Below are positions 14,067 through 42,031 of a stretch of DNA of 42,912 bases, piece after piece; positions within the stretch are counted from its first letter, which is position 1; each line of letters begins with the position of its first letter. The position numbers and the translations under genes were made by a program. The notes below the pieces were generated by a model that saw only the letters and a list, made by a program, of their open reading frames with translations, did not search any database and was not told the DNA's origin. This stretch comes from Chiloscyllium plagiosum. Lineage: Eukaryota. The stretch spans positions 1,086,255 to 1,129,166 of the forward strand of contig NC_057759.1 in NCBI RefSeq assembly GCF_004010195.1. The letters are read 5' to 3'.

Positions 14067-14069
14067 ATT

Positions 14070-14708: not shown

Positions 14709-14745
<37 letters not shown>

Positions 14746-14888
14746 CACACAAAGACTTCGTGCTAACTCTCTGCAGCTTGCAGAAAGTTGAGTGAATATT
14801 TGTGTTTTGGGTCTGTGCCCTGTCGTGACTGAGGTTGGTGCCCTGCAGATCAATAGTTCTGTGAAGATTTAAAGTAGGTAGGATAAAT

Positions 14889-15650: not shown

Positions 15651-16084
15651 TCATTTGTCACCGTCTGTTGGGAGTGTTACAATTGCACAGATGAGTGAAC
15701 TTAAGACCACTGATTTTGATAAATCTAACTGCTGCTTTTAAAATCAGTTTGTACTCTTTAACCAGAAGGTCAAAGAAAATGATGCACTGCTGAAAGAACC
15801 AAACATTGCTAGTTTTTCAAAAAAAAAGGTATTTCAATTTAACTTTAAAGCAACCAGAAGTGCAAGTCAAATTCAAACTAATAAAATTTAAAATTCCACT
15901 TGGAAGAATTAGGCCACCGTACAGGTTGACAATTACAACTTTGCCCCCTAAATCAGTATTTACAGACAGCCTGTGGCATTCTACTGGCACCACATTTAAA
16001 TAATTCAAGATGAAAGTACACATGGCTCCTATATGATTACTTTAAAACTGCACCCAGATTCTCACAACCATCCATACTGTGGGA

Positions 16085-19399: not shown

Positions 19400-19445
19400 A
19401 TTGACTGAATGGACTAAGTATACTTGTAAAAGCCAAGTAGTTGTC

Positions 19446-19467
19446 ATGAAATGACAAAACAAGGGAA
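19446..19467 (+). promoter_or_regulatory. Polypurine tract (decayed)
   Basis: ...AAAACAAGGGAA immediately precedes the TG of the 3' LTR. Confidence 0.7.
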
Positions 19468-22660: not shown

Positions 22661-23599
22661 ATCACTCGTAACATTGTTCTTGCCAATTTCTGCAATGTAC
22701 AAGATATTTCCCCTTACCAAACGCTGCAGTTATAAATATAAACTTACTTTCAATTCGCAGAAGCTGATATTCAAAGAATATGGGTGTGGAGGGGACGGAG
22801 TCCTACCTGAGACTGTCCAAAGTGGTGTGTGGTCACACTCAAAATTGTAGATACTAAATGAGATACATTCTTATGTTAATGACTGACACCTACAGAGTAA
22901 AAACAACAGGTTACACTTTAGAAGGTTTGAGTTACAGTCCAGTAACATACTGACATGTAAAGACTGTGAAATAGAGCAAACAAAAATGCTTTACATCCCA
23001 GAAATGGATAGGCACAGATTGGAGGAACATTTCCAAGTGGCATGCAAATAGTGTAATGTTTTATCGCTCACATCAGTGTTTGGTGGATACAGAATAAAAC
23101 CTGTCTTGAAGTAACACTAATTGACTATTACACAGAGGACCAGAGCCTCAGATGTTGAGTTAATGGCAAATATATAAATAAAGACTGGACAGATACAAAA
23201 TTAAAGTGCCACACATATAGCATGCTAACAGTTGCTGGTTAACAGGCATTTGTATGAGACAGAGAAATGCCCTAAATCTCTTCGTGAAACTGCAATACTC
23301 CGAAATAAAAAGTGCAGCAACATGGTTCTGGTACACTGTAGGTACTTGCAAAGCACACATTTACAGAACGGTCTCTGGGCCCACAGTTAACAATCAATTT
23401 CTCAGAAATATATCAATCCCACGGTCAAGACAGACATTTTCAATCCGAGACACAAAAACAAAACGCTTTAAATGGGGACTTTTTCCATCTCTCTCCAACT
23501 CCGTGCAGTTGAGAACTAGTTCCGTCAACCTGTGCCGCTGCACAATTTCTTGTTCACTCCCACCTCTCTGTCTGTGTGTGTATTTGTCATTATTATTGA

Positions 23600-23882
23600 G
23601 TTTGGCGAGTCCCGGAGCCGGCCCTGTTGTTTCTCTCTCCTGAAAGGGTTGTCCCTTTAAAGAGTCTTTCCCCTGAAGCAGCTGCTAACGGTCACTTGGG
23701 GCACGAGGCGGCCGTTAACCGCCATCTCGCGCGGGGCCTGAAGCTAAAATGGCGCCGGGGCCACGCGGGAAGGAAAAGCGCCGAGGGAGAGCGGACTGTG
23801 TCAACATGTGCCGTTCCCGAGGGTCAGGATGGTGGTTATTGGGGGGTGGAGGGGGATAGGAGAGATCCTCCCCCCGGTGAGG
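23600..23882. promoter_or_regulatory. CpG-rich promoter-like island
   Basis: Local CpG enrichment; two opposed YY1-type cores (CCGCCATCT ~23719, AAAATGGCG ~23746); donor-like CCG|GTGAGG at 23876/23877. Confidence 0.6.
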
Positions 23883-24128
23883 TATATTGTACAGACTGCG
23901 AGGTCTCTATCTCTCTCTGTTGGACTGTCTATGACTTGCTTTAACACTATGTCGATTAATCTCGATGATCTTGTGTCTCTTTCTGACTCTGACTATGTTT
24001 CTATATAACTCCATATGCCTGTGTGTGTCTCTGTCTCTCTCTGTTTCTCCCTGCCTCTCTGACTTTCTCAGTGACTCTGTAACTCTCTCTGACAACAACT
24101 CGTGCCTAACAGTTTGGTTTAATCACAG

Positions 24129-24400
24129 GCATCCCTGTGTCAGTCCTAGAGCTGAGTGTCCACACTGGAAATGAGGTAGTGGAGGGAGACAGCGCCTCAT
24201 TAAACCACTCTTTCAACCCCAATTCAATATACTTTCTACAAGGATGGTGAAGAGATTTAGTGGGAATACTCCAACCACTGCAGAGCCTTACACACAATCA
24301 TCAACATCAGCAAAAGTGAAGAGGGCAGTTAGCACTGTGCTGTTTCTAACCAGCAGGCAGAGTCTCTCCTGAATAGCAAATTTATCGCCATTTCAGTGAG
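24129..24400 (+). pseudogene. Receptor Ig-domain exon A
   Basis: CAG| then GIPVSVLELSVHTGNEVVEGDSASL / TPIQYTFYKDGEEI*...ISKSEEGS*HCAVSNQ...SKFIAISV. One frameshift, two stops, first Cys lost. Confidence 0.85.
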
Positions 24401-24434
24401 TTTTTAAGCAACTCTATACATATCGACATCATCA

Positions 24435-25232
24435 GAGCAGTGTGATAGCGCTGGGGAAGCATGCAGAGGGAGATTTACCAGGTTATTGTCTTGGGGGCTG
24501 GAAAGTTTCAGTGATGAAGAGAGATTGGACAGACCGGGGTTGTTTTCCTTAGAGCAGAGCAGGTTGAGAGTGTGGGGACATGATTGAGCTATATTAAATG
24601 ATGAGGGGCGTAGATAGGGTATACAGGAAGAAACCTCCCCTGCTCCCTTGAAGGAGGGATCAATGACTGGGGGAGGGGCATAGATTTAAGGTAAGGGGTA
24701 AGAGGTTTCGAGGGGGATGTGAAGGAAAAATTTCACTGAAGGGGGAGGGGGAGGGGGGGTCTGGAACTCACTGCCTGTAAGGGTGGGAGAGGCAGAAATT
24801 CTCATCACATTGAAGAACGATTTAGATGTGCATTTGCAATCCAAGGCGAGAGTCAGATTAAGTGGTCTTTGATGTTTCATATGTATATTGCTGCAGAAAT
24901 AGGGGCTTGGATAAGGTGAATAATCAAGGTCATTTCCCCAGGACAGGGAGTCCAAAATAGAGGGCATTGGTTTAAGGTGAGAGGGGAAAGATTTAAAAGC
25001 GACCTGAGGGATAACTTTTTCACAGATGGTGGTGCATTTTTTGGAATGAGCTGCCAGAGGAAGTGGCAGAAGGGGGTACAATAACAACCTTTAAGAGCTA
25101 TTTGGAAAGATGCATGGATAGGAAAGGTTTTGACAGATATGGGCCAAACACAAGCAAATGCAGCTAGTTCTGTTTAGAGACTTCGTGAGCATGGACGAGT
25201 TGGGCCAAACGGCCTGTTTCCATTCTGTGACA
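24435..25232 (+). mobile_element. Two consecutive CR1-type 3' fragments
   Basis: LFSLEQSRLR and WNSLP/WNELP-type C-terminal motifs and a CR1 3' UTR. Confidence 0.75.
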
Positions 25233-25295
25233 TTCCAACTGGGAGTCTGGTATTGGAGAACAGAGAACAGGTATTGGTTGCTTTTAACTGGCATG

Positions 25296-25568
25296 GAAGA
25301 TGTTCAAAGTAGGGTGTGGGATGGGGACAGTGACGGTAACCCCAGGATGTTGACAGAAGGTGGGGGTGGGGGGGACTGTGAGTAACCCCCAGAATTAACA
25401 GTGAGGTGGGGGTCGGGACAATGACGGTAACTCCCAGGATGTTGAATGTGATTTAGGGTGGGGACAGTGACAGAAACCCCCAGAATGTTGAATGTGTGCT
25501 GGGGGTAGGGACAGTGACAGTAACTCCCGGGATGTTGATGCTGCAAGGGTTGGGGATAGGGATGGTAA
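25296..25568. repeat. G-rich minisatellite, ~43-45 bp unit, ~6 diverged copies
   Basis: Recurrent ggatgttgaatgtg...gggacagtgacggtaaccccca. Confidence 0.8.
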
Positions 25569-25810
25569 TACCATTGAACATCAAGAGGACAATGGTTGGA
25601 TGGTGTACCATTTGACCATCCATAGTTAACTCAAATCTTTCGAAGTGTAGATTTTACAACAGATGGAAACTTTGCAACGATGTGAAACCTCAGTTGCTTT
25701 ATTTCTCCTTTCTGTCAGTTATTATCCTGTCATAGAAGTTAACATCTGTGAAAAGAAAGACAATTTCAACATCCAATCTTTTATTTCCTCGTTGTCTTGT
25801 TTTGTTCCAG

Positions 25811-26104
25811 TTCCTGTTGCTGGGGTTTTCCTCACCCCCAGAGTCAGGAAAATGGAGGTTCCGATTGGGAATTGTCTTGTTCGAGAGTGTGTATTGTGTT
25901 GAGGTACAGGATCGTACTTTCAACGGTACCTTCAAAGGTAAGCTTTAAATAATGCCAGCGGGAACTACAACTTTAGCTCAGACAGGAGAGAGCTGGCCAT
26001 TGAATCCTCCAGTTCCAGCACCAAGGCAGATACCTTGTTGCGATCAACAGGGGTTGGAACAATATTTAGTGTGACCAGGAATTCCATCAACCTCACAGAG
26101 CTAG
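25811..26104 (+). pseudogene. Receptor Ig-domain exon B (294 nt, phase 1-1)
   Basis: ttgttccAG| VPVAGVFLTPRVRKMEVPIGNCLVREC...*GTGSYFQRY...ALNNASGNYNFSSDRRELAIES; a shifted frame gives HQGRY..VAIN; ends SINLTEL-G|GTAATT. Confidence 0.82.
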
Positions 26105-26182
26105 GTAATTCATTCTTCATCTTTGATCTGTGCTCGTTCTTCACTGGGGTTCAGCTGAAGTCTTGACATGAACACTCTAAAA

Positions 26183-26400
26183 TGAAAGTGTGTTGTTGGA
26201 AAAGCGCAGCAGGTCAGGCAGCATCCAAGGAACAGGAGTATCGACGTTTCGGGCATAAGCCCTTCTTCAGGAATTCCTGAAGAAGGGCTTATGCCCGAAA
26301 CGTCGATTCTCCTGTTCCTTGGATGCTGCCTGACCTGCTGCAGTTTTCCAGCAACACATTTTCAGCTCTGATCTCCAACATCTGCAGTCCTCACTTTCTC
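26183..26400. mobile_element. Palindromic Penelope terminal-repeat insertion with 16-bp TSD and hammerhead motifs
   Basis: 91-bp arms centred on GAATTC (26271-26276); CATGAACACTCTAAAA at 26167-26182 and 26401-26416. Confidence 0.88.
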
Positions 26401-26499
26401 CATGAACACTCTAAAAAAAATTACTTCAGAAACTCAGCACGTCGGCAGCATCTGTGGGGGGAAGGGAAAGAGAGAGTAATATCCTTTCCTAGATAAGGG

Positions 26500-27105
26500 A
26501 GGCCTTTATAGCGAGAGGATTCAAGTCCTAAGTGCAGGGATGTCTCGTTACAATTGGACAGGGTGAGACCACACCCTGGAGAACTCTGTGCGCAGTTTGG
26601 GGTTTCCTTATTTGAGGAACGATATTGTGCCTATGGAGGGAGTGCACTGAAGGTTTCCCACAATGATTCCTGGGATGGCAGGACTGACAGATGGAGAGAG
26701 ACTGGAATGGTTAGGATGATATTCACTGGAGTTTAGAAGAATTAAGGGGGAATCTCGTAGAAACCTATAAATTTGAACAAGGATGAAACCCAATAAACAT
26801 GCAGAGAGTGTTCCCGGTGACCAGGCGGAGAGTCCAGAACTAGGGGGTCACGGTCAAAAGGGAATGGAATGGGAATGAGATGGGGTGAATTGTCTTGACG
26901 CTGAGAGTGGGGAGCCTGTAGAATTCTCTGCCACAGAAAGCAGTCAGGGCCAGAACACTGAATGTTGTTCAGGAAGGAGTTGGATTGAGTTCTTAGGGGG
27001 TAAAGGGAGAATGCGGGGAGACAGGGGATTGTGTTGGGTGATCAGCCATGATCCCTTTGAATGGGCAGAGCAGGCTAGAGGGACTGAATGGCCTCCCCCC
27101 TCCAA
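26500..27105 (+). mobile_element. CR1 3' fragment
   Basis: VRPHPGELCAQFG and FRRIKGES remnants plus a 3' UTR. Confidence 0.75.
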
Positions 27106-27455
27106 ATGATATTTTCGATGTTTCTCTGTGAATGGCCCAGTTGCCACTGACAGGTGGAGGACAAGGGAAGTTTTGCCTCGATATATGGAGTCCGTGAAAA
27201 TGAGGGACAGTAATTTCTAGTCGACCATTTAGAGAGAGTGGGTGCAGAGTGATCTTTTGAGTTTAGCATGGAATAGTTTGGGTTGGATCGGTGGGATATT
27301 GTTAATGAGAGAGGCTGCACAGAAACAATTATGTTAATGCAATGGTGAGGGTTTGGAGAGAATTTTACAGACACGAGTGTTGGCAGGGGGTCAGGGCAAC
27401 AGGGAACAGGAAACACTGGGGTTGGTGTTTGCTGAAGGGATGATGTTATTGACAG

Positions 27456-27939
27456 GAAATCCCTCTCTGAATCCAGCACAGGCACTCAGCACTGAGATGG
27501 CAGTACTCATTGTCCCACTGTTTCTGATCCTTTCTCTCCTCATATTTTTTTTTTAGATTACTTTTTTTTAGATTAGATTACTTACAGTGTGGAAACAGGC
27601 CCTTCGGCCCAACAAGTCCACACCGACCCGCCGAAGCGCAACCCACCCATACCCCTACATTTACCCCTTACCTAACACTATGGGCAATTTAGCATGGCCA
27701 ATTCACCTGACCTGCACATCTTTTGGACTGTGGGAGGAAACCGAAGCACCCGGAGGAAACCCACGCAGACACGGGAGAACGTGCAAACTCCACACAGTCA
27801 GTCGCCTGAGGCGGGAATTGAACCCAAGTCTCTGGCACTGTGAGGCAGCAGTGCTAACCACTGTGCCACCGTGCCGCCCACATATTTCTTCCCATTAAAC
27901 TCCGGAATTGGAAACAAGATGGGTGAGACACTCCAGCAG
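27456..27939 (+). pseudogene. Receptor transmembrane exon, split by a SINE
   Basis: Removing 27548-27887 gives GNPSLNPAQALSTEMAVLIVPLFLILSLLIFLPIKLRNWKQD. Candidate donors at 27923 and 27940. Confidence 0.82.
27548..27880 (-). mobile_element. HE1-like SINE, young, TSD CATATTT
   Basis: Full length with a (TAATC)n tail; CATATTT at 27541-27547 and 27881-27887. Confidence 0.92.
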
Positions 27940-28189
27940 GTAACCCTGGCGATCATTCTCCAGTTGGCACTCGATGTAGGTTTCAAACTGATGTTGCTCA
28001 CATAGTGTATGAGGGTGTGCGTATGAGAGAGTATGTGTATGAGTGCGTTTGAGTGATAGTGTGAAAGTGTACATCTGTGTGAGAGAGACACACACACATT
28101 CTCATTGACCCTTACACATACTTTCACGTGCGCGCACACACTCAGTCACTTCTGCAGTGCACCTTGTAGACCACACTTGAGAAGCCGAA

Positions 28190-28625
28190 CACCATCCAGG
28201 GACAACGCAGCCCCTGCTTGATTGGCACCACATCCACACCCTCCACCACCCATGCTCAGTAGCAGCTACGAGATGCCCTTCAGAAGTTCACCAAAGATCT
28301 TCAGGCAGCACCTTCCAAACCCACAACCACGTCCATCTAGAGGGACAAGCACAACAGATACATGAGAATACCACCTCCTGCAAGTTTCTCTTTGAGCCAC
28401 TCACCAATTTGGACATATATATCAGCCATTCGTTTAGTGTCGCTGGGTCGAAATCCTGTAATTCCCTCTTTAATGGTGTCATGTGTCTACCTACAGCATA
28501 GGGACTGCAGTGGTTCAAGAAGGCAGCTCAGTACCTCCTTCTCAAGGGGCCAACTTGGGTTGGATATTAAACTCTCGGCCCAGCCAGTGATTTCCACAAC
28601 CCACCAGTGAATTAAAAAAGAAATA
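28190..28625 (+). mobile_element. Non-LTR retrotransposon 3' fragment (second copy at 33965-34240)
   Basis: Two diverged copies in the window share 'ggactgcagtggttcaagaaggcagctca' and end in 'gtgaat(t)aa'; clade not assigned. Confidence 0.65.
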
Positions 28626-28879
28626 AAGCACTATTTGGGAACATGCTGTATGAGGATGTGGGCAGGCTGAACAAGTGGCAGACGAAATTACTTGGGGACA
28701 CATACAAAGAAATGTGCTGTGTTCAGAGGAATGGTTAGCACAGATATAAGCTAAAGGTTAAAATTGGAATAATTGTTGCTTGCGCATCAGTCAAAGAATC
28801 CAGATTCATTTGCTAGCAGGAGAAGCTGAATATTTACAGTAAAACTTTCCTGTGTTCTTTCTCTCTTATTTTTTTCCAG

Positions 28880-28906
28880 CATGTTCCCGGCAACACAGTT
28901 AAGTTG
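28880..28906 (+). pseudogene. Receptor cytoplasmic exon 1 (27 nt, HVPGNTVKL)
   Basis: Long pyrimidine tract + CAG acceptor, GTGAGG donor; reading phase inferred. Confidence 0.55.
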
Positions 28907-29129
28907 GTGAGGTGGTTAGCAACTTCGAACAGCATTGAAACACTGTCCAAATAGCCTGAAAATCACTCTGGGGTGCAAACCCAGCAATTTTACACTTGTT
29001 AGATAAATCGGAGCAAATGAACCATTAAGTCTGGCTCGTAAAGCACAACAGTTCAAATCGAGGACACACTCTCAATTTCCGTTAGACAGTAAACTGAGAG
29101 TTGGTCAGTCCCATTAGTGGTGAGGTTAT

Positions 29130-29730
29130 CCATTGCAGTTGGAAGAATTATAAAAGGGAACTTATCATCTGAATAGGAGAGAAAGTTAAAAATGTCAATG
29201 CAAAAGCTACAGCAGGTCACAAGGAAGACATTTATTGCAAAAGGAATGGAGTATGGAAGTAGGTAATTGTTACTGCAACTGTACAAGGGATTGGGGTTTC
29301 CACATCCGGAGTACTGCAGACAGTTTTGGTCCCCTTCCTTGAGGAGGGATGTAGTTGAATTGGAGGGAGTTCAAAGGAGATCATTGAATTGATTGCCCAG
29401 ATGAGATTTTAATCTTATGAGAAGAGACTGGTACAATTTTGATGTCTTTACTTGAGGACTGATGCAGTTATACTGGAGGTAGTTCAGAGGAGATTCACTC
29501 AATCATTTCCAGAGATGAAGGGTTTGTCTTACATGAGAGATTGAGCAGTTTCTCTGGAGTTTGGAAGAGAGGAGATCTAACTGAAGGTTATAAGATGCTA
29601 AAGGGGGTATTGACAGAGGATGTTTGAGAGAGATGTGGGAGAATCTAGAACGAGAGGTTATCATTTCAGGATAAGGGGCTGGACAGACTGAAAACAGAGT
29701 TAAGGAGCAATGAATTCTCTCAAATGAGGA
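29130..29730 (+). mobile_element. Old CR1 C-terminal fragments
   Basis: LQLYKGLGFPHPEYCRQFWSP remnant. Confidence 0.7.
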
Positions 29731-30479
29731 GGGGGGTTGAACATCACGCCCCCGCCCAACCCCCCACCACTGCATAAATTGGAGGAGGAGACAGACAGAN
29801 NNNNNNNNNNNNNNNNNNNNNNNNNNNNNNNNNNNNNNNNNNNNNNNNNNNNNNNNNNNNNNNNNNNNNNNNNNNNNNNNNNNNNNNNNNNNNNNNNNNN
29901 NNNNNNNNNNNNNNNNNNNNNNNNNNNNNNNNNNNNNNNNNNNNNNNNNNNNNNNNNNNNNNNNNNNNNNNNNNNNNNNNNNNNNNNNNNNNNNNNNNNN
30001 NNNNNNNNNNNNNNNNNNNNNNNNNNNNNNNNNNNNNNNNNNNNNNNNNNNNNNNNNNNNNNNNNNNNNNNNNNNNNNNNNNNNNNNNNNNNNNNNNNNN
30101 NNNNNNNNNNNNNNNNNNNNNNNNNNNNNNNNNNNNNNNNNNNNNNNNNNNNNNNNNNNNNNNNNNNNNNNNNNNNNNNNNNNNNNNNNNNNNNNNNNNN
30201 NNNNNNNNNNNNNNNNNNNNNNNNNNNNNNNNNNNNNNNNNNNNNNNNNNNNNNNNNNNNNNNNNNNNNNNNNNNNNNNNNNNNNNNNNNNNNNNNNNNN
30301 NNNNNNNNNNNNNNNNNNNNNNNNNNNNNNNNNNNNNNNNNNNNNNNNNNNNNNNNNNNNNNNNNNNNNNNNNNNNNNNNNNNNNNNNNNNNNNNNNNNN
30401 NNNNNNNNNNNNNNNNNNNNNNNNNNNNNNNNNNNNNNNNNNNNNNNNNNNNNNNNNNNNNNNNNNNNNNNGTGGACCT

Positions 30480-30682
30480 CAGCTGGAGTGTCAGAGAGAG
30501 AGAGAGAGGGAGAGAGTGATAACTGGTAGGTGGTGGTTTAACCTGAGGGTTACCATGCCTCACACAAGGGGAGAGATGGAGGACAGTCCTTCATGGTAAC
30601 CTCAGTCAGTGAGAGATTCAAACCCACGCTGTTGATGTTACTCCATATTTCAAACCAACCATCCAGCCAACTGAGCTAACCC
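30480..30682 (-). mobile_element. Second tRNA-derived SINE family (another copy at ~39436-39637)
   Basis: Minus-strand GGTTAGCTCAGTTGG A-box and GGGTTTGAATC B-box; 'ggtttaacctgaggg' core shared by both copies. Confidence 0.7.
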
Positions 30683-31554
30683 AACACAAAGTAGAGGGCA
30701 GAAAAGAAATTAAATCCAGTGACAGCACAGGTATTGAATGGAGAATATTAGATTGTTTTGGAGATATACTTTTGATCTGTTGGGTATTTCTTTGTATGTG
30801 TGTAACACCTTACCTTCACAGACAACAGAAGCTGAATTTAGAAATACATTTGACAAAAGGAGTTGGCCTTCTATTACCCAGGCTGGTTTTGTTCTGTTCT
30901 GCACACCTTCCTTAAGGAAGGGTGTACAAATGCTGGAGACACTGTGAAGGAGATGTACGAGAATGATACCAACGATGAGGGATTTTAGATGCAGGGAAAA
31001 GTTCAGGAGATTGAGCTTATTCTCTTTCGAGCAGAGAAGATGAAGTAGTGACATTATCGTGGTGTTGAAAGTTTGAACAAATCTGACGGGTAAGCAAGTT
31101 ATTGTTTCCCATTCATTGGTCTATTAGTAACTGGCTGGTCAGAATTTCAAGATTGTCAGTGAGAGAGTGAGACGAGGAGAAACTTATTGGGTTGTTGAGT
31201 TTGGAATGTGCTGCTTGGGAGGCAGATTCCATAGGAGGTTCGAAAAGAGAGCTGGATAGAAATTTGAAAGGGATGATGGTAGAGGGCGAAAGATAGGGCT
31301 GGAGATTGGGACTAGCTGGGTAGCCCTTTCAGAAGCTGGTAAGACACAAATTGCTTCCTTCTGTACAGTAAAGTTTTGATTCTCTGAACGTAGATGTTCT
31401 GAGCCACATTCCAGACAATTCCAGGAGGCCATTACTTGTACCTTGGCTCAGTGACCTTTTTGCCAGGGGTTTTCGTCCATGAACAGCAGCAAATTGTTGT
31501 CACGAGTAGGATTGGAACTTGGTTGGGTAATGGTCTGTAAATATTTCATTCCAG

Positions 31555-31648
31555 GGGAAGCAATAGGAAATCGAGCTGAGGGCGCGAGTGAGGACAGAAC
31601 CCGCAAGAAATTTCGAACACGCAAAATTCGGGTCAAGTCAATTGAACG
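31555..31648 (+). pseudogene. Receptor cytoplasmic exon 2
   Basis: ttccAG| GKQ*EIELRARVRTEPARNFEHAKFGSSQLN-g |GTGAGT; the phase-1 end matches the next exon. Confidence 0.6.
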
Positions 31649-31759
31649 GTGAGTATGAATTTATGAGGTGCTGATCCTACACCATCACGTATTGGTCAGC
31701 GTTCATGCTAGTTTTCGTCTGATTCGGACAAAACCAAATCTCTTTCTGAAGTGTTGGAG

Positions 31760-32700
31760 GGAATTTTGGGTTGTTTCCTTTACAACAGAGAAGGTTGATG
31801 GGGGAGGGGGGACATGATAGAGGTGTGTAAGATTGATAGTGTTGTAGAGCAGAGAGCTTTAGACGTTCAGGTACATAATTCTTTGGAGTTTGTGTCACAG
31901 GTAGACAGGGTGTTTGAGAAGGTGTTTACAACACTTGCCTTCATTGATCAGCCCATTGAGTGTTGGAGTTCGGACACCATGTTTTGGTTGTACAGGACAC
32001 TGGTGAAGCCTGTTCTGGTGCATTGTATCCAATTCTGGTTACCCTGTTAGATGAAGGATATTATTAAGCTGGAGAGGGTTCAGAAAAGATATACCAGAAT
32101 GCTGTTGGGAATGGAGTGTTTGAGTTATAAGGAGAGGCTGGCTGGACTGGAACTATTATCACTGGAGCATAGAAGTTTGAGGGGTTTCAAGGTTTATGAA
32201 ATCATGATGGACATAGATGAAGTGAATGGCTAGTGGGGGGGTGACTTCAAGACCAGGGGACATAGTTTTCAGGTGAGAGGAGAAACAATTTTTTAAAAAT
32301 GACATGAGGGGCAACCTTTTTTTGACGGAGAGTGGTTCACTTTTGATTGAACTTTGAGGAAGTGGCGGACCTGGGTACAGTTACAATGTGTAAAACACAT
32401 CTAGGAAACTACAAGAACAGGAAAGGTTAGGAGAGATATGGGCCAAGTGCAACCAAGTGGGACGAGTTTAGTTTGAGATTATGGACAGCATGGACCAGTT
32501 GGACCAAAGCGTCTGTTTCCTTGCTGTGATGCTTGCTATGATGCTATTATGAGGGACATGGACCGGGGAACAGGAAACGGCTGTTTCCCTTAGTCCAAAG
32601 GTCAGTAACAAGGGGGACATCATTTTAATGTGAAGGGTAAGAGGTTTAGAGAGGGATTTAAGGGTTCTTTCACCCAGAGGATGGTGGGGATCTGGAATGT
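31760..32700 (+). mobile_element. CR1 3' fragments
   Basis: LYRTLVKPVLVHCIQFW and DIIKLERVQKRYTRM motifs. Confidence 0.85.
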
Positions 32701-32829
32701 GTGAAAATAAAATATTTGGACTTTCAGTTTCTATTTGAAATCACTAATTGCTCCGGTGTGTGGAAATGCCACTTTGTAACTGCAGGGGAGGGGGGCGCGG
32801 TTCCATGATTTATTAATGTGGAATGTTCG

Positions 32830-33760
32830 TACAAAGGAGCAGGAGGAAGCCATTCAGCTCCTTTAGCGTGTTCTACCATTCAATGGTTGATCTGTGATCT
32901 GACTCCATCTGACTTCATTTATGGGTTGCACGGTGGCACAGTGGTTAGCACTGCTGCCTCACAGCGCCAGAGACCCGGGTTCAATTCCTGACTCAGGCGA
33001 TTGACTGTGTGGAGTTTGCACATTCTCCCTGTGTCTGCGTGGGTTTCCTCCGGGTGCTCCGGTTTCCTCCCACAGTCCAAAGATGTGCAGGTCAGGTGAA
33101 TTGGCCATGCTAAATTGCATGTAGTGTTAGGTAAGGGGTAAATGTAGGGGTTGTGCTTCAGCGGGTCGGTGTGGACTTGTTGGGCCGAAGGGCCTGTTTC
33201 CATACTGTAAGTAATCTAATCTAATCTAACCTGCCTTTGGCTCCTATCCCCTTAATAACTTTGCTGAACATAAAAAAAATCTCTGAATTAAAACTAACAA
33301 CTGATCCAGCATTGCCTGCTGTTTATGGAAGAGAGTTCGAAACCTCTCACAGCCATTGTGCGTAGTAGTACTTCCTAACATCTTTCCTGAACAGTCTGGA
33401 CCTAATTCTCCAGCAATGCCCTCCCTCATTCTAGGATCCCCAAACAGTGGAAACACTTTCAATTTATCCACCCCGTCTTTTCATGTTAATATCTTCGATC
33501 AGATCATCCCTAAACCCTGTAAATTCTGGGGAGAACAGGCTTAATTTGTGTAATCTCTCCTCGTAACTTAACCCCTGAAGCCCAGATATTAATCTTGTAA
33601 ACTCACGCTATACTCCCAGGTCAATCTATCCTTCCTCGGGTGTGGTGCCCAGATCTGCTTCAAGTGGGGTCAAACCAGGGTTTTGTATAACTGCAGCATC
33701 CCTTCTGCATCCTTGTACCCCAGTCCTTTCGATATTAAGGCCAGCATTCCATTAGCTTTC
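32830..33760 (-). mobile_element. CR1 3' fragment interrupted by a SINE
   Basis: Reverse-strand CR1 C-terminal and 3' UTR sequence on both sides of 32923-33229. Confidence 0.7.
32923..33229 (+). mobile_element. HE1-like SINE
   Basis: A box GTGGCACAGTGGTTAGC, B box GGGTTCAATTCC and a (TAATC)n tail. Confidence 0.92.
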
Positions 33761-34554
33761 TTCAGGCAATGCATGTCAGAAATAAAAGGAAACATGGATA
33801 TCGTTGGAGAAACTCAGCAGGGACAGATATTATTTGCCACCTCGGGACTGACTGTTTACTGTTGCAGACAACTTTCCATCTGTTCTTTTAATCCTTCAGT
33901 TTTGAGCTGTGCTGGACCAGGTACTGTTCAGTAAAGAATGCAGGGGCACACAATTGCAATTATTCATTTTGTGCAGCAGATACATGGGAACATCCACCCT
34001 CTGCAAGTTCCCCTTCAGCCCACGCAATGTTCTGACTTGGAAATATAATACTATTCCTTCAATGTCATTGGGTCAAAATCAAGGAATTCCCTCCCTCCGC
34101 GCAATGTGTGTCTATCTATAGCACATGGACTGTAGCAGTTCAAGAAAATAGCTCATCCCCACCTTCTCAGGGCGCAACTAGGGATGAGTTGGGCAATAAT
34201 CACTGGGCCCAGCGGGTGATGTCCATGTACCATGAGTGAATAATGATTTTAAAAATTGTAAATTACCCCAGGGCCTCCACCTTCCCTATGTGAGTCTGTT
34301 CTGGGAGGGTGGGCACACACATTGTAGTGAATGTTGATGCAAAATACACATTGGATGTTATTGAGTCGCCTAGTTTGTGAACTGCTTTGAAAAGGTCGAT
34401 ACATAGCCAAGAGCTTAGGTGTGTATTCCTGCTGGGTTGGGGCTGTGACCTTAATTATCACTCCATATTCAATTTTGAGGCATTATTTGCTATTGTTTTA
34501 ACATTCTGATCTCTAACTTTTCGGTTCATTTTGCTTACTGTTTCCTGATTATAG

Positions 34555-34620
34555 ATGACTCCAAAATGAATAGCAGTTTGGTGTACTCAGTTTTCACCAT
34601 CTCAAAAATGAGAAACGCTG
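34555..34620 (+). pseudogene. Receptor cytoplasmic exon 3 (66 nt, phase 1-1)
   Basis: attatAG| DDSKMNSSLVYSVFTISKMRNA-G |GTAAAG; contains the Tyr motif LVYSVF. Confidence 0.72.
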
Positions 34621-34737
34621 GTAAAGGATACAGTATATATATATACTTTCACAACATTTCTGGTTCAGTGAAAGTGGAGATTTTCTCTAGTTTATCTTAA
34701 CCCTCTAAAGCCCAGCCACTTGTAAACATTGTAGTGA

Positions 34738-36866
34738 GAAAAGCCAATTTTGACAGTATTAGGCAAGAACTTTCAAAAGCTGTTTGGGCGCAGATGTTCG
34801 TAGGTAAAAGGACGGCTGGAAAATGGGAAGCCTTCAGAAATGAGATAACGAGACTCCAGAGAAAGTATATACCTGTTAGAGTGAAAGGAAATGCTGGTAG
34901 GTATAGGAAATGATGGATGACTAAAGAAATTGAGTTTTGGTTAATAAAAAGAAGGAAGTCGTATGTCAGGTATAGACAGGATAGATCGTGTGAATCCTTA
35001 GGAGAGTATAAAGGCAGTAAGAGTATACTTAAGAGAGAAATCAGGAGGGGAAAGAAGGGACATGAGATAGCTTTGGCAAATAGAGTTAAGGAGAATTCAA
35101 AAGGACTTTTACAAATACATTAAGAACAAAAGGGTAACTAGGGAGAGAATGAGGCCCCTCAAAGATCAGCAAGGCGGCCTTTGTGTGGAGCTGCAGGAGA
35201 TACTAAATGAGTATGTTGCATCAGTATTTACTGTGGAAAAGGACATGGAAGATATAGAATGTAGGGAAATAGATGGTGACATCTTGAAAAATGTCTATAT
35301 TACTGAGGAGGAAGTGCTGTGTGTCTTGAAATGCTTAAAGGTGAATAAATCCCTTGGATCTGATCAGGTGTACCATAGAACTCTGTGGGAAGCTAGAGAA
35401 GTGATTGCTGGACCTCTTGCTGAGATATTTATATCATTGATAGTCAGAGATGAGATGCCGGAAGACTGGAGGTAGTCTAACGTGGTGCCACTCTTTAAAA
35501 ATAGTGGTAAGGACAAGCCAGGGAACTATAGACAAGTGAGCCTGATGTCGGTGGTGAGCAAGTTGTTGGAGGGAATCCTGAGGTACTGGATTTTACATGT
35601 ATTTTGAAAGGCAGGACTGATTAGAGCTCGTCAACGTAGCTCTGTGCGTGGGAAATTATGTATCACAAACAAGATTGAGTTTTTTGAAGAAGTAACAAAG
35701 AGGATTGATGAGGACAGAGCGATAGATGTGATCTACATGGACTTCAGTAAGGCATTCGACAAGGTTCCCTATGGGGTACTGTTTACCAAGGTTAGATCTC
35801 ATGGAATACAGGGAGAATTAGCCATTTGGATACAGAACTGATTCAAAGGTCGAAGACGGAGGGTGGTGGTAGAGGGTTGTTTTTCAGACTGGAGGCCTGT
35901 GACCAGTGGAGTGCCACAAGGATCTGTGCTGGGTCCACTACTTCTTATCATTTATATAAATCATTTGGATGTGAGCATGTGAGGTATAGCTAGTAAGTTT
36001 GCAGATGACACCCAAACCGAACAGTTTTGGACAGTAGTAGACAGTGAAGACCTCTGATTACAACAGGATGTTGATCAGATGGGCCGGTGGGCTGAGAAAG
36101 ATAAATATGAGGTATTGCATTTTGGGAAAGCAAATCTTAGCAGGACTTATACACTTAATGGTAAGGTCCTCTGGTGGAGTGCAGGTTCATAGCTCCTTGA
36201 AAGTGGAGTCGCAGGTAGATAGGATAGTGAAGAAGGCGTTTGGTATGCTTCCCTTTATTGGTCAGAGTATTGACTACAGGGGTTGGGAGGTCATGTTGCG
36301 GCTCTACAGGATATTGGTTAGCCCACTTTTGGAAAATTGCCTGCAATTCTGTTCTCCTTCCTATCGGAAAGATATTGTGAAACTTGAAAAGACTTTTCAA
36401 GGATGTTGTCAGGGTTGGAGGATTTGAGCTATAGGGAGAGGTTGAATAGGCTAGGGCTGTTTTCTCTGGAGCGTTGAAGGCTCAGTGGTGACCTTACAGA
36501 GGTTGACAAAATCATGAGGGGCACAGATAGGATAAATAGACAAACTCTTTTTCCTGGAGTGGAGGAGTCCAGAACTAGATAGAATAGGTTTAGGGTGAGA
36601 GGGAAAAGATATAAAAGAGGCCTAAGGGGCAACGTTTTCACGCAGAGGGTGGTGCGTGTGTGAAATGAGCTGCCAGAGGAAGTGGTGGAGGCTGGTACAA
36701 CTGCAACATTTAAAAGGCATCTGGATAGGTATATGAATAGGAAGGGTTTGGAGGGATATGGGCCAGGTGCTGGCAGGTGGGACTTGATTGGGTTTGGGAT
36801 ATCTGGTCGTCACGGATGAGTTGGACCGAAGGGTCTGTTTCTGTGCTATACATCTCTATGACTCTA
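34738..36866 (+). mobile_element. CR1, 5'-truncated, with 3' tail
   Basis: ORF2 linker, RT ([28 protein letters not shown]) and C-terminus; tail ctctatgactcta. Same subfamily as 8085-9571. Confidence 0.93.
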
Positions 36867-37254
36867 GTGTTTCCTTTGCTTATAGCATGGAGCGATGATC
36901 TGCCCAAGTTTTTTGAATCTTTTTGCATCATTTGAATTTATTACTAATGGATAGTGTTTTCAATGAATTAAATCATAGAAATGTTCCATCCATGTCAACT
37001 CAATTACCAACAGGGCAATGTGAATTGGAATAGGGAATGTTACACTGATGGCTAATTGCTTTTAATTTCATCTTGTTTTGAAGGAATGCCTAAATTTTAG
37101 GCCCTGGGTCATCAATCTGTAGATTGCCCCAGTACAACAGCTTAATGTCTGAGAGTGGCCCTTTCTGGCCTTGGTCTTTGGGGCAAGGAGCCATTCGTTC
37201 TGGGTCTAGCATCATTCACATGAGGAGCATTGCCATTTCATTGCCCTGAGTGTT

Positions 37255-38120
37255 TCTTTGATGATACAAAGGTAGGTGGAAAGATAGGTAGTGTTGAGGA
37301 AGGGGTGAGGCTGCTGAAGGATTTGGACAGACTGGGAGAGTGGGCAATGAAATGGTAGATGGAATACAATGTGGGAAAGTGGGAAGTTATGTACTTTAGT
37401 AGGAAGAAGAGACAGACTGTTTTCTATATGGGGAAAGGGTTCAGAAATCTGAAGCACAAAGGTCTTGGGAGTCAGAGTTCAGGATTTTCTTCAGGTTAAT
37501 GGGTATGTCCATTTGGCAGTTAGGAAGGCAAATGTAATGTTAGTATTCATTTTGGGAGGTGTCGAATACAAGAGCAGCAATGTACTGCTGAGGCTGTATA
37601 AGGCTCTGGTCAGACTACGTTTGGAACATTGTGAGCAGTTTTGGGCCCCCTATCTAAGGAAGGATGTGCTGAACTTGGGAGGAGTCCAGTGGGGGCTTAC
37701 AAGAAAAATCCCAGGGATGAAGCACTTGTCATATGAGGAGAGGTTGAGGTCTCTGAGTCTGGACTCTATGGAGTTTAGAAGGGTGATGGAGAATCTGATT
37801 GAAATTTGGAGGATACTGAGAGGCTCGGATAGAGTGGACATGGACAAGATGTTTCCATGAATAAGAGAGACTAAGACCCGAAGGCACAGCCTCAGAGTGA
37901 AGAGAACTCCCTTGAGAACTGAGATGAGGAGGAATTTCTTCAGCCAGACAGTGGGGAATCTGTGGAACTCATTACTGCAGACGGCTGTCATTATGTCTTT
38001 AAGACAGAGGTTCTTGATCAGTAGAGAGAAGGCAGGAGAATGGGGTTAAGAAACATATCAGCCATGATGGAATGGCAGAGCAGACTTGATGGGCCGATAG
38101 GCCGCTCTACCTTATGGTTT
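37255..38120 (+). mobile_element. CR1 3' fragment
   Basis: LYKALVRLRLEHCEQFWAPYLRKD motif. Confidence 0.9.
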
Positions 38121-38239
38121 TGGCTATTAAGTGACTAATGGCCTGTGATGCATCACACAGTTTAGGCCCTCAGGTTCAGAGCTTTCTGAGCATGTGCTAT
38201 GAGGCACCCACACTAAAAAGTGTGCAGGCAGCTGGATGA

Positions 38240-39255
38240 CTAATAGAACATACGGGCTCAGAGCCCTTGGGAGCCAGCTTCCCTCGTTTTTATGGCTGCA
38301 ACTGATCTCATCCCAGCCTCAACTCCAATTTCCTGCCCCCACTCCCTTTAACCCCTCACTGATTGACAATTTGTCTGTCCCCTCCTTCAATTTATTCAGT
38401 GTCCCGACATGCCCCCCTCACACATTGGGGGATGAATTCCCAGATATTTCCACCCCCTCTGCCTTGGAGAGAAGCCATTTCTCAACATCTCACTTTTCAG
38501 TCTGTCCCACCCCCTTCTCGTGAAACAATGACCCTCTCATCCTAAATTGTCACACATGAGGAAACAACCTCTCTCTGTCTCCTTTGTCAATCCCACCTCC
38601 TTTACCACCCTATATCCCTCAGTTGGAACTCCCCTCATTCCTCTAAACTGCAGAGCATATTGGCCTTCATTGCTCAATCTCTCATTTGAAGACAAATCCC
38701 TCCTCTCTGAACATGAAATGTACAAAATCACGCTAGATAGTATCTTGGATGTAGAATACACATCTCAAAGTGAGTTAGTCATAGTTTCCGAGAAGTCTGC
38801 AGCCCAGAAAAAGGCCAGAGTCTGTGCTGGTCAGAAACAACCACCTCACTATTCTCTAATCCCATTTCCCCAGTACTTGTCCCCATTGCCCTGGTGTCAC
38901 GAGTGCACATCTAAATCCTCCTTCAATGTGATGACGGATTCTGCCTCTCCCACCCTTACAGGCAGTGAGTTCTAGATTCACCACCACCCTCTGGGTGAAC
39001 AAGATTTTCCTCACAATCTCCTGGCCCTTACCTTCAATCTATACCGCACCCCCCCCCCCCCCCCCCCAACATCCGTTAAGGGGGGAATGTTTCTTCCTGC
39101 CTGCCCTATCTTCACCCCTCATCATTTTATACATCCCTCTCTTTCAATCCACTCTGCTGTAAGGACAACAACTCCAGTATGTCCATAATCTCTCCATCAT
39201 CGAAACTCTCCAGCCCCAAGGCAATACGCTGGTAAATCTCCCTGTGCATCCTCTC
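38240..39255 (-). mobile_element. Two old CR1-type 3' fragments
   Basis: Reverse complement resembles 24435-24850 and other CR1 ends. Confidence 0.65.
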
Positions 39256-39306
39256 AATTCATTTAGATATGTACCATTGGTAAAATGACTTTTCTTTTAT
39301 TTACAG

Positions 39307-39338
39307 GTCACTCTAATGGTGCAGCAGGAAGGAAACAC
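39307..39338 (+). pseudogene. Receptor cytoplasmic exon 4 (32 nt, phase 1-0)
   Basis: ttttatttacAG| (G)HSNGAAGRKH |GTAAGT; phases fit both neighbouring exons. Confidence 0.72.
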
Positions 39339-39663
39339 GTAAGTTATATTGCAGTGAAAAAGAGGGCAGTTAACTTTGCTGATAAAAAAATTATGTTTTT
39401 AGCAAGCAGTTAATGTAAGTTCACCATTGTCTCATTAGAGAGAGGGGGAGAGAGGTGTGGGGGAGAAAAAGAGAGAAAAAGCAACAACTGTTTTATGGTT
39501 TAACCTGAGGGTCACCATATCGAAGGCACATGGAATGATCATTCACAGCAATTTCAACCAGAGCAGCAATTGAACACATGCTGTCAGTGTGACTGTACAT
39601 TGTAAGCCAACTATAGAAGCAACTGAGCTAACCAACCCCTAAATGGCAAGTGGCAAAATCTTT

Positions 39664-40155
39664 GGGTGGCACAGTGGCTCAGTGGTTAGCAATGCTGCTT
39701 CATAGCACCAGGGACCCAGGAACAATTCCAGCCTCAGGTGACTGTTTATTGGGAGTTTGCAAATTATCCCCTCCTCTGCGTGGATTTTCTCCGGGTGCTC
39801 CAGTTTCGTCCCACAGTCCAAAGATGTGCAGTTTAGATGGATTGGTCATACTAAGTTGCCCAAAGTATGAGAGTTATGCAGGTTAGGAGGATTAGCCATG
39901 GAAAATGCAGGGTTACAGGGATTAGAGACGGCATTGGGTCGGGGTCGGATGCTATTCAGAGGGTCAGTATATGGACCCGATGGGCTGAAAGGCCTGCTTC
40001 CACGCTGTAGGATTCTATGATGTGCAGGTTCGGGGGATTGGCTATGGTTAATGCAGGGTTACAGGAGTAGGGTCAGGGTCTGAGTGGGATCCTCTTCACT
40101 GGCTTAGGATAGACTAGATGGACTGAATGGTCTCTTTGCACACTGTACGGATTCT
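39664..40155 (+). mobile_element. HE1-like SINE with repeated 3' module
   Basis: tRNA head and V-core; the 'tgcaggtt...ctgtaggattct' block occurs twice. Confidence 0.82.
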
Positions 40156-40974
40156 GGGGACATTAATGTTTGGCTCAATAGTGTGGGGTATTTTATTCTG
40201 ATCTCAATTTTGATGAGATTCACTTTCAGTTTCTGAAATAATGGGAAGGCAAAATCCTATGTTTTCAGCTCCCCAGGGTATGCCCTGCAGATGTGAATTT
40301 GAATCTTGCTTTGGCAGGTGGTGGATTTGGAATTTGATTTTAAACAGAAACAGATCTGGAGTTAAGACTCTAATGATGACTGTTGTCAGGAACAAACAAC
40401 CATCTGGTTCAAAATTGAAGACTGAGGTGAGGAGGAATTTCTTCTCTCAGAGGGTTGTGAATCTTTGGAATTCCTTGCAACAGAGAGCTGTGTGTGGGGA
40501 CAGGGAGCAGTTTTAAGCCTGGGGTAGGTATTTTCCTGATTAGTCCAGGAATTGAGGGTTACATGTTAAGTGCAGGAAAGTGAGAGTGAGAAATGGGACA
40601 TCAGCCATGATGTGATTGAATAGCTGAGCAGGCTTGAGCCAAATGGCCTTCTCCTGTTTCTGTCTGTGATCTGCCGTCTTTACCTGATCTGCCCTGCACT
40701 TGACTCCAAACCCTTTGCAAACTCTTTACTGCCTTCTGGCTGAGCAAGTCAATTGGTTTAAGGACATTTCGGAATTGTATTCACTCCCCATCTTGGCAGA
40801 GATGACCACATCCTGTTCAGAGTACAGAGAAATAACAGGGTCAGGGTCAGTTTTAGGCTTGTTCCAGTCATGTGCTTTGCCAAGAGAAATTGGTTTGTAT
40901 CATGACCCCACATATTCGCAGCTCCTCTCTTCACTGGTTGTCTTTCAGGAAAAGTTTGTTATTCTCATCCATTT

Positions 40975-41870
40975 TCATAGTAATACTGCACAGAAACAGG
41001 CCCTTCAGCCCAACTCGCCCATGCTACCAGGTTTCCCAAACTCAACTAGTCCCATTTGTCTGCATTTGGCCCATATCGCTCTAAATGTTTCTTATCCATG
41101 TACCTTTCCAAATATCTTTTAAGCGGAATTGTACCTGCCTCGACCACTTCCTCTGGCAGCTCATTCCATATACTCACTGCCTTCTGTGGGATAAATTTGC
41201 CTCTCAGGTCCTGTTTTAATCTTTCCCTTCTCACCTTAAACCTATGCCCACTAGTTTTGGACACCCCTACCCTGGGTAAAAGACCATAACTATTTACGGT
41301 TTCTGTGCCCCTCGTGATTTTATAACCTCTATTAGATCACTCCTCAGCCTCCAACACTCCAAGGGAGAAAAGCTCCCAGCTTATGAAGCTTCTCCTTTTA
41401 ACTCAAACCCTGCAATCTTGGTAACATATTTGTAAATCTTTTCTGCAACCTTTCTAGCTTAACAACATTCTTTCTACAGCAGGTTGACCAGAAATGCACA
41501 CAATACTCTAAAAGTTGCCTCACTAACATGCTGTACAGCTGTAACATGATGCCCCAACTCCTATCGTAGTGCTCTGACCAATGAAGGCAAGCATGCCAAA
41601 CGCTTACTTCACCACAGTGTCAAGCTGCTATGCCACATTCAAGGAACTGTCTTCCTGCACCCCTAGGTCTGTTTGTTCGGAAACACTCCCCAGACTTGTA
41701 CTATTAACAGTATAGGTCCTGTCTTGGTTTGCCTTCCCAAAATGCAACACCTCGCATCTATCTAAATTAAAGTTTACCTGCCATTCCTTGACCCACTGGC
41801 CAAGTTGATCAAATTTCCATTGTCCTCTTAGATAACCTTCTTCTCTGTCCAAAACGCCACCTATTTTGGT
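40975..41870 (-). mobile_element. CR1 3' fragment
   Basis: WQVNFNLDRCEVLHFG and IWNELPEEVVEAG motifs. Confidence 0.9.
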
Positions 41871-41911
41871 CCTGCTCCTATCTACTACGTTTCTTGTTGA
41901 CCTGTATTCAG

Positions 41912-42031
41912 GCTGACCAACCACCCTGCATCACATACGCTATCCTGAGACACACAGATACAGGAGGGGATGAGGAACCAGGTCAAGATGAAGAGGGAAA
42001 TGTTTATGCCAACCTTCCACGGACATTGTGA
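41912..42031 (+). pseudogene. Receptor terminal coding exon with ITIM
   Basis: attcAG| ADQPPCITYAILRHTDTGGDEEPGQDEEGNVYANLPRTL-TGA. ITYAIL fits the ITIM consensus [SIVL]xYxx[IVL]; distal NVYANL. Confidence 0.8.

What the first reader, a model, noticed from the sequence alone, without database searches (positions are those of the whole stretch)
24129..42031. Hidden 18-kb FCRL/PECAM-like inhibitory receptor pseudogene
Seen in sequence: two phase-1 Ig exons beginning (G)IPVSV and VPVAGVFL, with the motifs VVEGD, PIQYTFYKDG and EEGS(Y)HCAVSN, then a TM exon and five small cytoplasmic exons. The last four splice in phase to ...SSLVYSVF...CITYAIL...GNVYANL*. Established: VPVS-type C2 domains, a multi-exon tail and ITIMs typify FCRL/LITR/PECAM-type receptors. 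Cartilaginous-fish members of this group are poorly characterised, so intact paralogues would inform Fc-receptor-like origins.
Basis: partly seen in the sequence, partly recalled or inferred. Interest (0 to 1): 0.7.

Follow-up and report, generated by a model that had tools for sequence, protein, structure and literature searches.

The report
Headless dead shark FCRL-like receptor copy
This is a real but broken back half of a shark immune-receptor gene, one of about 40 dead copies whose front end is replaced by an oddly conserved CpG-rich element; the intact sister gene is likely an inhibitory Fc-receptor-like protein, a family that reviews still say sharks lack.

Summary
Confirmed. The exons are real and collinear (79-89% DNA identity for eight measured) with the last nine exons of an intact 14-exon gene 1.4 Mb away (RefSeq XP_043539736-43, 'PECAM-like'; five Ig domains, uncharged TM, two canonical ITIMs; spliced in a public run). 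The window copy lacks the leader and first three Ig exons and has stops, frameshifts, a SINE and lost splice sites. The tail has six exons, not five, and ends NVYANLPRTL*. It is one of at least 40 copies; 27 of 36 examined share one frameshift, so they multiplied after death. The family resembles FCRL more than PECAM-1 (a separate PECAM-1-like gene lies on C24), but trees of these domains cannot exclude either. RefSeq names and a 2024 paper already use FCRL labels; the scan found this family before in at least eight windows of this genome and in three windows of other genomes. New here: 25 of 40 copies carry, in place of the front half, a CpG-rich promoter-like element ten times less diverged (1.3%) than the neighbouring exon (12.9%). 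Selection or gene conversion: undecided.

The parts
23531..23900 (.). CpG-rich promoter-like element standing where the front half of the gene should be (about 630-700 bp in other copies; this copy lacks about 330 bp of its left side)
   Evidence: GC 0.62, CpG o/e 0.95 at 23601-23800; 98-99.5% conserved core among 14 copies; 40 genomic matches; no Rfam match
24129..24395 (+). Fourth Ig exon: first Cys lost, 11-nt deletion, TAG at 24258 and 24330, 7-nt deletion at the donor leaving a phase-0 GT
   Evidence: groups with the intact fourth domain at 99/97
25811..26104 (+). Fifth (membrane-proximal) Ig exon: TGA 25900, TAA 25939, frameshifting deletions, second Cys lost
   Evidence: groups with the intact fifth domain at 100/100
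27477..27918 (+). Transmembrane exon split by a SINE (about 27548-27880, target duplication CATATTT); donor GT>AT
28868..28898 (+). Tail exon 1 remnant (approximate ends): acceptor deleted, donor GT>TT
31555..31648 (+). Tail exon 2: +1 insertion; FDYAEI tyrosine lost
33900..33955 (+).
34555..34620 (+). Tail exon 4, open, AG/GT intact; LVYSVF (degenerate ITIM)
39307..39338 (+). Tail exon 5, open, AG/GT intact
41912..42031 (+). Last exon, open, 12-nt in-frame deletion; ITYAIL (canonical ITIM), NVYANL, stop

Best explanation
The finding is a non-coding, front-truncated genomic duplicate of a five-Ig shark receptor gene, likely copied by repeated segmental duplication after it was already dead, and its intact sister gene likely works as an FCRL-type inhibitory leukocyte receptor. 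Steps. (1) Shown: the intact gene at G000:C50:2.503-2.531 Mb has a two-exon leader, five phase-1 Ig exons, an uncharged TM and six tail exons with five tyrosine motifs, two of them canonical ITIMs. (2) Inferred from RNA contigs: it is spliced. (3) Inferred from family knowledge: ligand engagement would phosphorylate the ITIMs and recruit SHP-1/SHP-2/SHIP to damp signalling; ligand unknown. (4) Shown: a founder copy lost its leader and first three Ig exons, was joined inside intron 3-4 to an unrelated CpG-rich element, and took a roughly 10-nt frameshift in the fourth Ig exon. (5) Inferred: tandem and inverted segmental duplications, at least 30 kb long, spread this dead unit over about 7 Mb. 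(6) Shown: the window copy then gained its own lesions and cannot make a receptor. (7) Open: the CpG element stayed nearly unchanged, most likely because it is an active promoter-type island kept by selection, otherwise by gene conversion among copies.
For: Collinearity of exons and introns with the intact gene. Intact gene equals RefSeq P0003/P0010, with 71-91% identical relatives in Hemiscyllium, Stegostoma and C. punctatum. Copy counts: at least 40 for each of the fourth Ig, fifth Ig and last exons against 7 of 7 candidates for the second and third Ig exons. 27 of 36 distinct fourth-Ig copies share the deletion and 21 of 36 the same stop; 2 of 36 fourth and 3 of 30 fifth exons are open, both together only in the intact gene. 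25 of 40 fourth-Ig hits have the element upstream, 2 have the third Ig exon, none both. pN/pS 0.89 over the two Ig exons against the intact gene. A contig of run X2 joins the intact gene's fourth exon end to the fifth exon, depth 198. Best PDB sequence hits FCRL5 (E 2e-49), FCRL4 and Fc-gamma-RI; PECAM-1 is absent from the 27 hits and from the 60 shown of 108.
Against: The FCRL assignment is not closed by phylogeny: on the last three domains, shark plus tetrapod FCRL has support 21/58 and shark plus PECAM is not rejected (p-AU 0.084). The intact gene's first domain forms a shark-only clade and its second groups with D1-type rather than D2-type domains. The second leader exon is 30 nt, not 21. 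Foldseek gave generic multi-Ig hits led by PirB, titin and DSCAM. The three last tail exons are open and in phase, pN/pS 0.58 on only 30 differences. A sister copy 94% like the window is spliced in run X1, so not every dead copy is silent. Counts come from one fragmented assembly, and some unplaced contigs may be haplotypes.
Confidence: 0.85

Rival explanations
1. The shark family is a separate expansion from the common ancestor of FCRL, PECAM-1 and LITR-type receptors. It works like FCRL but is not its orthologue.
For: Deep nodes unresolved; shark-specific first domain; 30-nt mini-exon; the only FcR-gamma/zeta family hit is on C12, not C50; earlier notes, untested here, place the cluster among LILR-like genes.
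Against: D2-type domains of catshark and sawfish members group with tetrapod FCRL D2 at 97/98, D3-type at 85/84; one end-to-end alignment with turtle FCRL (155 bits) against 88 bits for the PECAM-1-like protein.
Confidence: 0.2
2. The copies are derived from PECAM-1, as the RefSeq name suggests.
For: RefSeq name; AU test does not reject shark plus PECAM on the last three domains; VPVS-type domains are shared with the PECAM-1-like protein, which itself hits FCRL5 best.
Against: A whale-shark protein whose N-terminus hits PDB PECAM-1 D1-D2 (E 2e-10) maps at 65-87% identity to a separate locus on C24; the receptor's N-terminal domains hit Fc receptors, not PECAM-1.
Confidence: 0.07
3. The array is functional as non-coding genes: the CpG element is a live promoter, and the dead exons are the body of selected long non-coding transcripts (or yield a tail-only ITIM peptide).
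For: Element 1.3% against exon 12.9% divergence in the same 11 copies, 0.9% against 9.8% outside CpG columns; core 96-98% conserved even in the distant C4-type copies; YY1- and Sp1-like motifs (recalled consensus); a spliced sister copy in run X1.
Against: No other segment of the unit is conserved beyond about 90%, apart from the TM/SINE bin; no joint from the element to any exon and no cluster of molecule starts; only 3 of 988 reads in X6 are at least 99% like the window and X7 has none; last exons of many copies are frameshifted.
Confidence: 0.15
4. The element is not selected. It is homogenised by gene conversion, perhaps as a recombination hotspot, which would also drive the duplications and inversions.
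For: Identity peaks at 99.9% in the island and falls to 97%, then 88-93%, at its edges, taking in non-CpG sequence; element and exon divergences are uncorrelated (rho 0.09, p 0.52); copies lie in both orientations.
Against: The same core is conserved in copies on another chromosome whose flanks are 71-90% identical; the correlation test has little power with about 3 differences per pair.
Confidence: 0.35

Closest known systems
RefSeq XP_043539736-43 'platelet endothelial cell adhesion molecule-like' (Chiloscyllium plagiosum; P0003, P0010) and relatives named 'Fc receptor-like protein 2/3/4/5' in Stegostoma, Hemiscyllium and C. punctatum
   Same: Same exon chain and phases from the fourth Ig exon to the stop; 79-89% DNA identity in eight exons and 75% in the third tail exon.
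   Different: The window copy lacks five 5' exons, has a foreign CpG element in their place, and is broken in six of nine exons.
Turtle and kiwi FCRL models (P0039, P0130) and Xenopus XFL receptors (PMC2413239, passages read)
   Same: Five Ig domains aligned end to end with turtle FCRL, 28% identity over 547 columns; D3-type and membrane-proximal domains group together (85/84 and 91/20); multi-exon tail with tyrosine motifs; birth-and-death cluster.
   Different: Second leader exon 30 nt, not 21; the first two domains do not sort as D1 and D2 in this subfamily; no activating TM seen in the members I examined.
Human FCRL5, FCRL4 and Fc-gamma-RI (PDB 9loc, 9mbz, 8din, 4w4o)
   Same: Best sequence hits; residues 33-465 align with FCRL5 13-437 and 59-282 with Fc-gamma-RI.
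   Different: Immunoglobulin binding is untested; mammalian D5 repeats have no supported shark counterpart in the tree.
PECAM-1 (PDB 5c14, 5gni; whale-shark P0185, named 'Fc receptor-like protein 5' by RefSeq but read here as the likely PECAM-1)
   Same: VPVS-type membrane-proximal C2 domains, multi-exon ITIM tail.
   Different: Six domains, different N-terminal domains, separate locus on C24; weaker alignment.

Membership tests
Unprocessed pseudogene of the shark five-Ig receptor (subfamily of P0010) | Collinear exons and introns with an intact paralogue | tested here: met
Unprocessed pseudogene of the shark five-Ig receptor (subfamily of P0010) | Disabling lesions and near-neutral decay | tested here: met
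   four stops, frameshifts, SINE, four damaged donors; pN/pS 0.89 in Ig exons
FcR/FCRL family (tested on the intact paralogue) | Best reciprocal-type similarity to FcR/FCRL proteins | tested here: met
   PDB best hits FCRL5, FCRL4, Fc-gamma-RI; best non-chondrichthyan hits are frog and turtle FCRL models; only the forward direction was run
FcR/FCRL family (tested on the intact paralogue) | Ectodomain built of D1-D5/D6 subtypes in order | tested here: inconclusive
   D3 85/84, D1-type 86/88 (a wrasse CD22 fragment falls inside), proximal domain 91/20; D2 97/98 only for catshark and sawfish members; first domain shark-only; concatenated tree 21/58
FcR/FCRL family (tested on the intact paralogue) | Signal peptide split over two exons | tested here: met
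   40-nt and 30-nt leader exons; feature from PMC2413239
FcR/FCRL family (tested on the intact paralogue) | 21-bp second leader exon (30/21 rule of mammalian FCRL1-6; only a fraction of Xenopus XFL genes) | tested here: not met
   30 nt; the paper says only some XFL genes keep the rule, so this does not exclude the wider family
FcR/FCRL family (tested on the intact paralogue) | Uncharged TM with ITIM-bearing multi-exon tail (inhibitory class) | tested here: met
   TM MAAIIVPLFLILSLLTLLPV; LLYSVV and IIYATL; six tail exons
FcR/FCRL family (tested on the intact paralogue) | Synteny with the mammalian FcR/FCRL region | tested here: inconclusive
   PRCC and PRPF31 family searches rang nowhere; FcR-gamma/zeta hit on C12 only
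FcR/FCRL family (tested on the intact paralogue) | Binding of immunoglobulin Fc; leukocyte expression | not testable with these tools
   spliced junction in run X2, tissue not on record; PMC11372145 reports genes named fcrl3, fcrl5 and fcgr1a-like in bamboo shark B cells without locus ids in the passage seen
PECAM-1 | PECAM-1-type N-terminal D1-D2 and six-domain ectodomain | tested here: not met
   five domains; no PECAM-1 hit among the listed PDB matches; a separate gene fits better
Teleost LITR / CD22 | Domains grouping with LITR-like or CD22 C2 domains | tested here: not met
   window domains group with neither the catfish P0148 (LITR-like by my reading; RefSeq calls it hemicentin-1-like) nor the wrasse CD22-like rows; one protein each, so sampling is thin

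The most novel reading that the evidence does not exclude
A captured CpG-island promoter, fused by chance into intron 3-4 of a shark FCRL gene, is the real unit of amplification. About 30 near-identical copies of the island are kept by selection or act as recombination hotspots, and they carried dead FCRL back halves across a 7-Mb immune cluster. The intact members of that cluster date the Fc-receptor-like family, including its D2, D3 and amphibian-type proximal domains, to the ancestor of jawed vertebrates.
Probability: 0.3. Interest if true: 0.6.

Novelty: new member of a known kind. Interest (0 to 1): 0.3.

Why it matters
The dead copy itself is ordinary. Its family matters because a 2014 survey (PMC4016189) and a 2026 review (PMC13337447) state that cartilaginous fish lack FcRL genes and ask how sharks manage antibody-driven phagocytosis. 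Intact, spliced FCRL-like genes give named candidates to test against IgM, IgW and IgNAR. That point is already implicit in RefSeq names, in PMC11372145 and in many earlier notes of this scan. The conserved CpG element is the unexplained part: it would show how a promoter-like island can drive or ride the birth-and-death turnover of an immune receptor cluster.

Tried and rejected
Zinc-finger hitchhiking: C2H2 genes flank the window copy, but none was found in the seven other stretches of 30-80 kb scanned; rejected. Element as retroviral LTR: the neighbouring provirus has its own LTR pair (13625-14066, 20516-20988), 2.5 kb away; rejected. Element as structured RNA: one weak Rfam match outside it (E 0.81), none in a complete copy, folding z 0.24 and 0.48; rejected. 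Element as coding exon: one + frame is open in the 7 copies printed, but 0 of 219 candidate proteins scored; weak negative. Element as assembly artefact: copies carry private variants, and in independent runs one to three contigs cover the element against up to 15-16 over the Ig exons, at similar depth; unlikely. Foldseek on the AlphaFold model (mean pLDDT 73, five Ig folds) gave generic multi-Ig hits; uninformative. Synteny markers PRPF31 and PRCC: no match anywhere, uninformative. NCBIfam: 0 families. Run search: no RNA holder on record for the intact gene. Supplements of PMC11372145: 0 occurrences of fcrl3, fcrl5, fcgr1a or pecam1 in 4 files held. PMC7677710: 0 occurrences of Fc receptor, FCRL or PECAM in the main text. 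No complex prediction was run. Reads were laid only on 23400-26170, so the TM and tail junctions of this copy are untested.
Full report
Observation. All named motifs are at the stated places on the + strand. The window lies at G000:C50:1086255-1129166. DNA searches of the own genome gave 41 matches for the first Ig exon (40 of 58 candidates scored), 40 for the second (40 of 55) and 40 for the last exon (39 of 39), mostly on the 8-Mb scaffold C50 and in both orientations. One copy, C50:2.503-2.531 Mb (minus), has both Ig exons open and is collinear with the window over exons and introns. Its fourth domain is 100% identical to RefSeq P0003, named 'PECAM-like' in Chiloscyllium plagiosum; relatives at 71-91% in Hemiscyllium, Stegostoma and C. 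punctatum carry PECAM-like, FCRL2-6 or Fc-gamma-RI-like names.

The intact gene. It has 14 exons: leader exons of 40 and 30 nt, five phase-1 Ig exons, a TM exon and six tail exons. The tail holds FDYAEI, AVYSSV, LLYSVV, IIYATL and NVYANV; by the recalled consensus (I/V/L/S)xYxx(L/V/I), LLYSVV and IIYATL are canonical ITIMs. The TM has no charged residue. AlphaFold gives five Ig folds, a TM helix and a disordered tail. A contig of run X2 (kind not on record) joins the intact gene's fourth exon end exactly to the fifth exon at depth 198, which I read as spliced mRNA.

The window copy. It holds the last nine exons only. The leader and first three Ig exons are absent from the window and the 10 kb before it. 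Lesions: fourth Ig exon, first Cys lost, 11-nt deletion, two TAG, damaged donor; fifth Ig exon, TGA, TAA, frameshifts; TM exon split by a SINE, donor GT>AT; tail exon 1 without acceptor or donor; tail exon 2 with +1; tail exon 3 with -1 and donor GT>GC. The last three exons are open and in phase. pN/pS against the intact gene is 0.89 for the Ig exons (92 differences) and 0.58 for the three tail exons (30 differences). In RNA run X6, 3 of 988 laid reads were at least 99% like the window; X7 had none; a contig of X1, 94% like the window, splices the fourth to the fifth exon through a donor this copy has lost, so some sister copy is transcribed. Reads were laid on 23400-26170 only.

History of the array. 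The second and third Ig exons have only 7 copies each (7 of 7 candidates). Of 36 distinct fourth-exon copies in the loci I had fetched (not all hits; identical stretches collapsed), 27 share a roughly 10-nt deletion and 21 the same stop; 2 are open. Of 30 fifth-exon copies 3 are open and 11 share a stop. Only the intact gene has both open. The unit was therefore dead before most duplications. Flanks align for at least 11 kb upstream and 18 kb downstream at about 85-92%, which points to segmental duplication. On C50, 13 of 22 fourth-exon hits have a last exon within 30 kb downstream (one partial duplicate hit was dropped from each of two lists).

The element in place of the front half. At 23531-23900 lies the most CpG-rich stretch of the window. 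It has 40 scored matches of 90 candidates; 31 of these 40 have a receptor exon downstream on the same strand; 25 of 40 fourth-exon hits have it upstream, 2 have the third Ig exon instead, none has both. Its core is 98-99.5% identical across 14 copies whose flanks are 84-93%. In the same 11 copies the element differs by 1.3% and the exon by 12.9%. In complete copies the conserved part spans about 630 bp with graded edges. Four distant relatives (81-83% overall, 96-98% in the core) lack receptor exons among the hits; the one on C4 lies about 4.6 kb upstream of a TNFR-domain exon. It is not an LTR of the neighbouring provirus, not an Rfam family, not unusually folded and has no protein match. The RNA lay shows no joint from it and no start cluster. 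I read it as a captured promoter-type island; selection and gene conversion both remain open.

Family. By sequence the intact protein hits human FCRL5 (E 2e-49), FCRL4 and Fc-gamma-RI first, and frog and turtle FCRL models are the best non-chondrichthyan hits. It aligns end to end with turtle FCRL at 155 bits and with a whale-shark PECAM-1-like protein at 88 bits. That protein hits PDB PECAM-1 at its N-terminus and maps to C24, so the shark likely has its own PECAM-1 elsewhere. A tree of 90 domains over 90 columns (19 rows dropped as near-duplicates or extra repeats, after trimming repeats of CD22, catfish and squirrel rows) puts the window exons with the intact fourth and fifth domains (99/97, 100/100), catshark and sawfish D2-type domains with tetrapod D2 (97/98) and D3 types together (85/84). 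It leaves PECAM domains unplaced and the shark first domain on its own. A three-domain concatenation is unresolved: 21/58 for shark plus FCRL, p-AU 0.084 for shark plus PECAM. Foldseek is uninformative. So it likely works like an inhibitory FCRL, and membership is probable, not proven. A second subfamily with open exons lies on the same scaffold.

Literature. PMC4016189 (passages): no FcRL homologues found in sharks. PMC13337447 (passages): FcR-like molecules lacking in cartilaginous fishes. PMC11372145 (passages; supplements searched, no hits): genes named fcgr1a-like, fcrl3 and fcrl5 are expressed in bamboo shark B cells. PMC2413239 (passages): domain subtypes D1-D6 and the 30/21 leader rule. 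PMC7677710 (term search): no mention. Other papers were seen as listings only. Nine searches found no paper describing the shark cluster; the library lacks most subscription journals.

Earlier notes. After I had fixed my reading, the scan's notes showed this family in at least eight other windows of this genome and in three windows of other genomes. They are unchecked AI notes, not support. Two prompted my synteny searches, which were blank.

Verdict. A real, ordinary dead paralogue of an already annotated and repeatedly noted family; the conserved CpG element is the one new and unexplained feature. Interest 0.3.

Noticed in passing
window 13625-20988: Old endogenous retrovirus-like insertion: LTR pair 85-93% identical in ungapped blocks, integrase fragment (Pfam rve E 3e-4, below cut-off), and a 380-codon open frame at 18257-19396 that looks envelope-like by eye but has no Pfam hit. 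Shared at 90-92% by at least three other copies of the unit, so it predates those duplications.
   Followed up: partly
window 3-555 and 12461-13333; G000:C50:1070754: Three C2H2 zinc-finger arrays on the + strand upstream of the pseudogene; none found near the other copies scanned.
   Followed up: partly
G000:C50 near 1.49, 3.85, 4.90, 6.98 and 7.07 Mb (L090-L105): Second FCRL-like subfamily with six or seven Ig exons, several with open frames; RefSeq XP_043539714-22 is one. In five places a member lies just upstream of a full-length copy of the first subfamily, suggesting an older two-gene duplication unit.
   Followed up: partly
L131-L132 (G000:C4:112569646 and 112574257): Distant relative of the CpG element about 4.6 kb upstream of an exon with TNFR cysteine-rich repeats (Pfam E 8e-17; osteoprotegerin/DcR3-like by recall); a possible source locus.
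   Followed up: partly
window 25632-26003 (reads of run X6): Pile of poly(T)-primed reads read as an antisense transcript through the fifth Ig exon; the letters differ from the window, so it comes from another copy.
   Followed up: no
G000:C24:48.00-48.13 Mb (L151-L156): Likely PECAM-1 locus with a tandem duplicate of its first three Ig exons, one copy with a stop; the whale-shark relative is named 'Fc receptor-like protein 5' in RefSeq, so automatic names look swapped between the two families.
   Followed up: partly
L149 (G000:C50:6392906): A copy in which the CpG element is fused directly to the fourth tail exon by a large deletion.
   Followed up: no
window 29800-30470: Assembly gap of Ns inside the intron between tail exons 1 and 2.
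   Followed up: no
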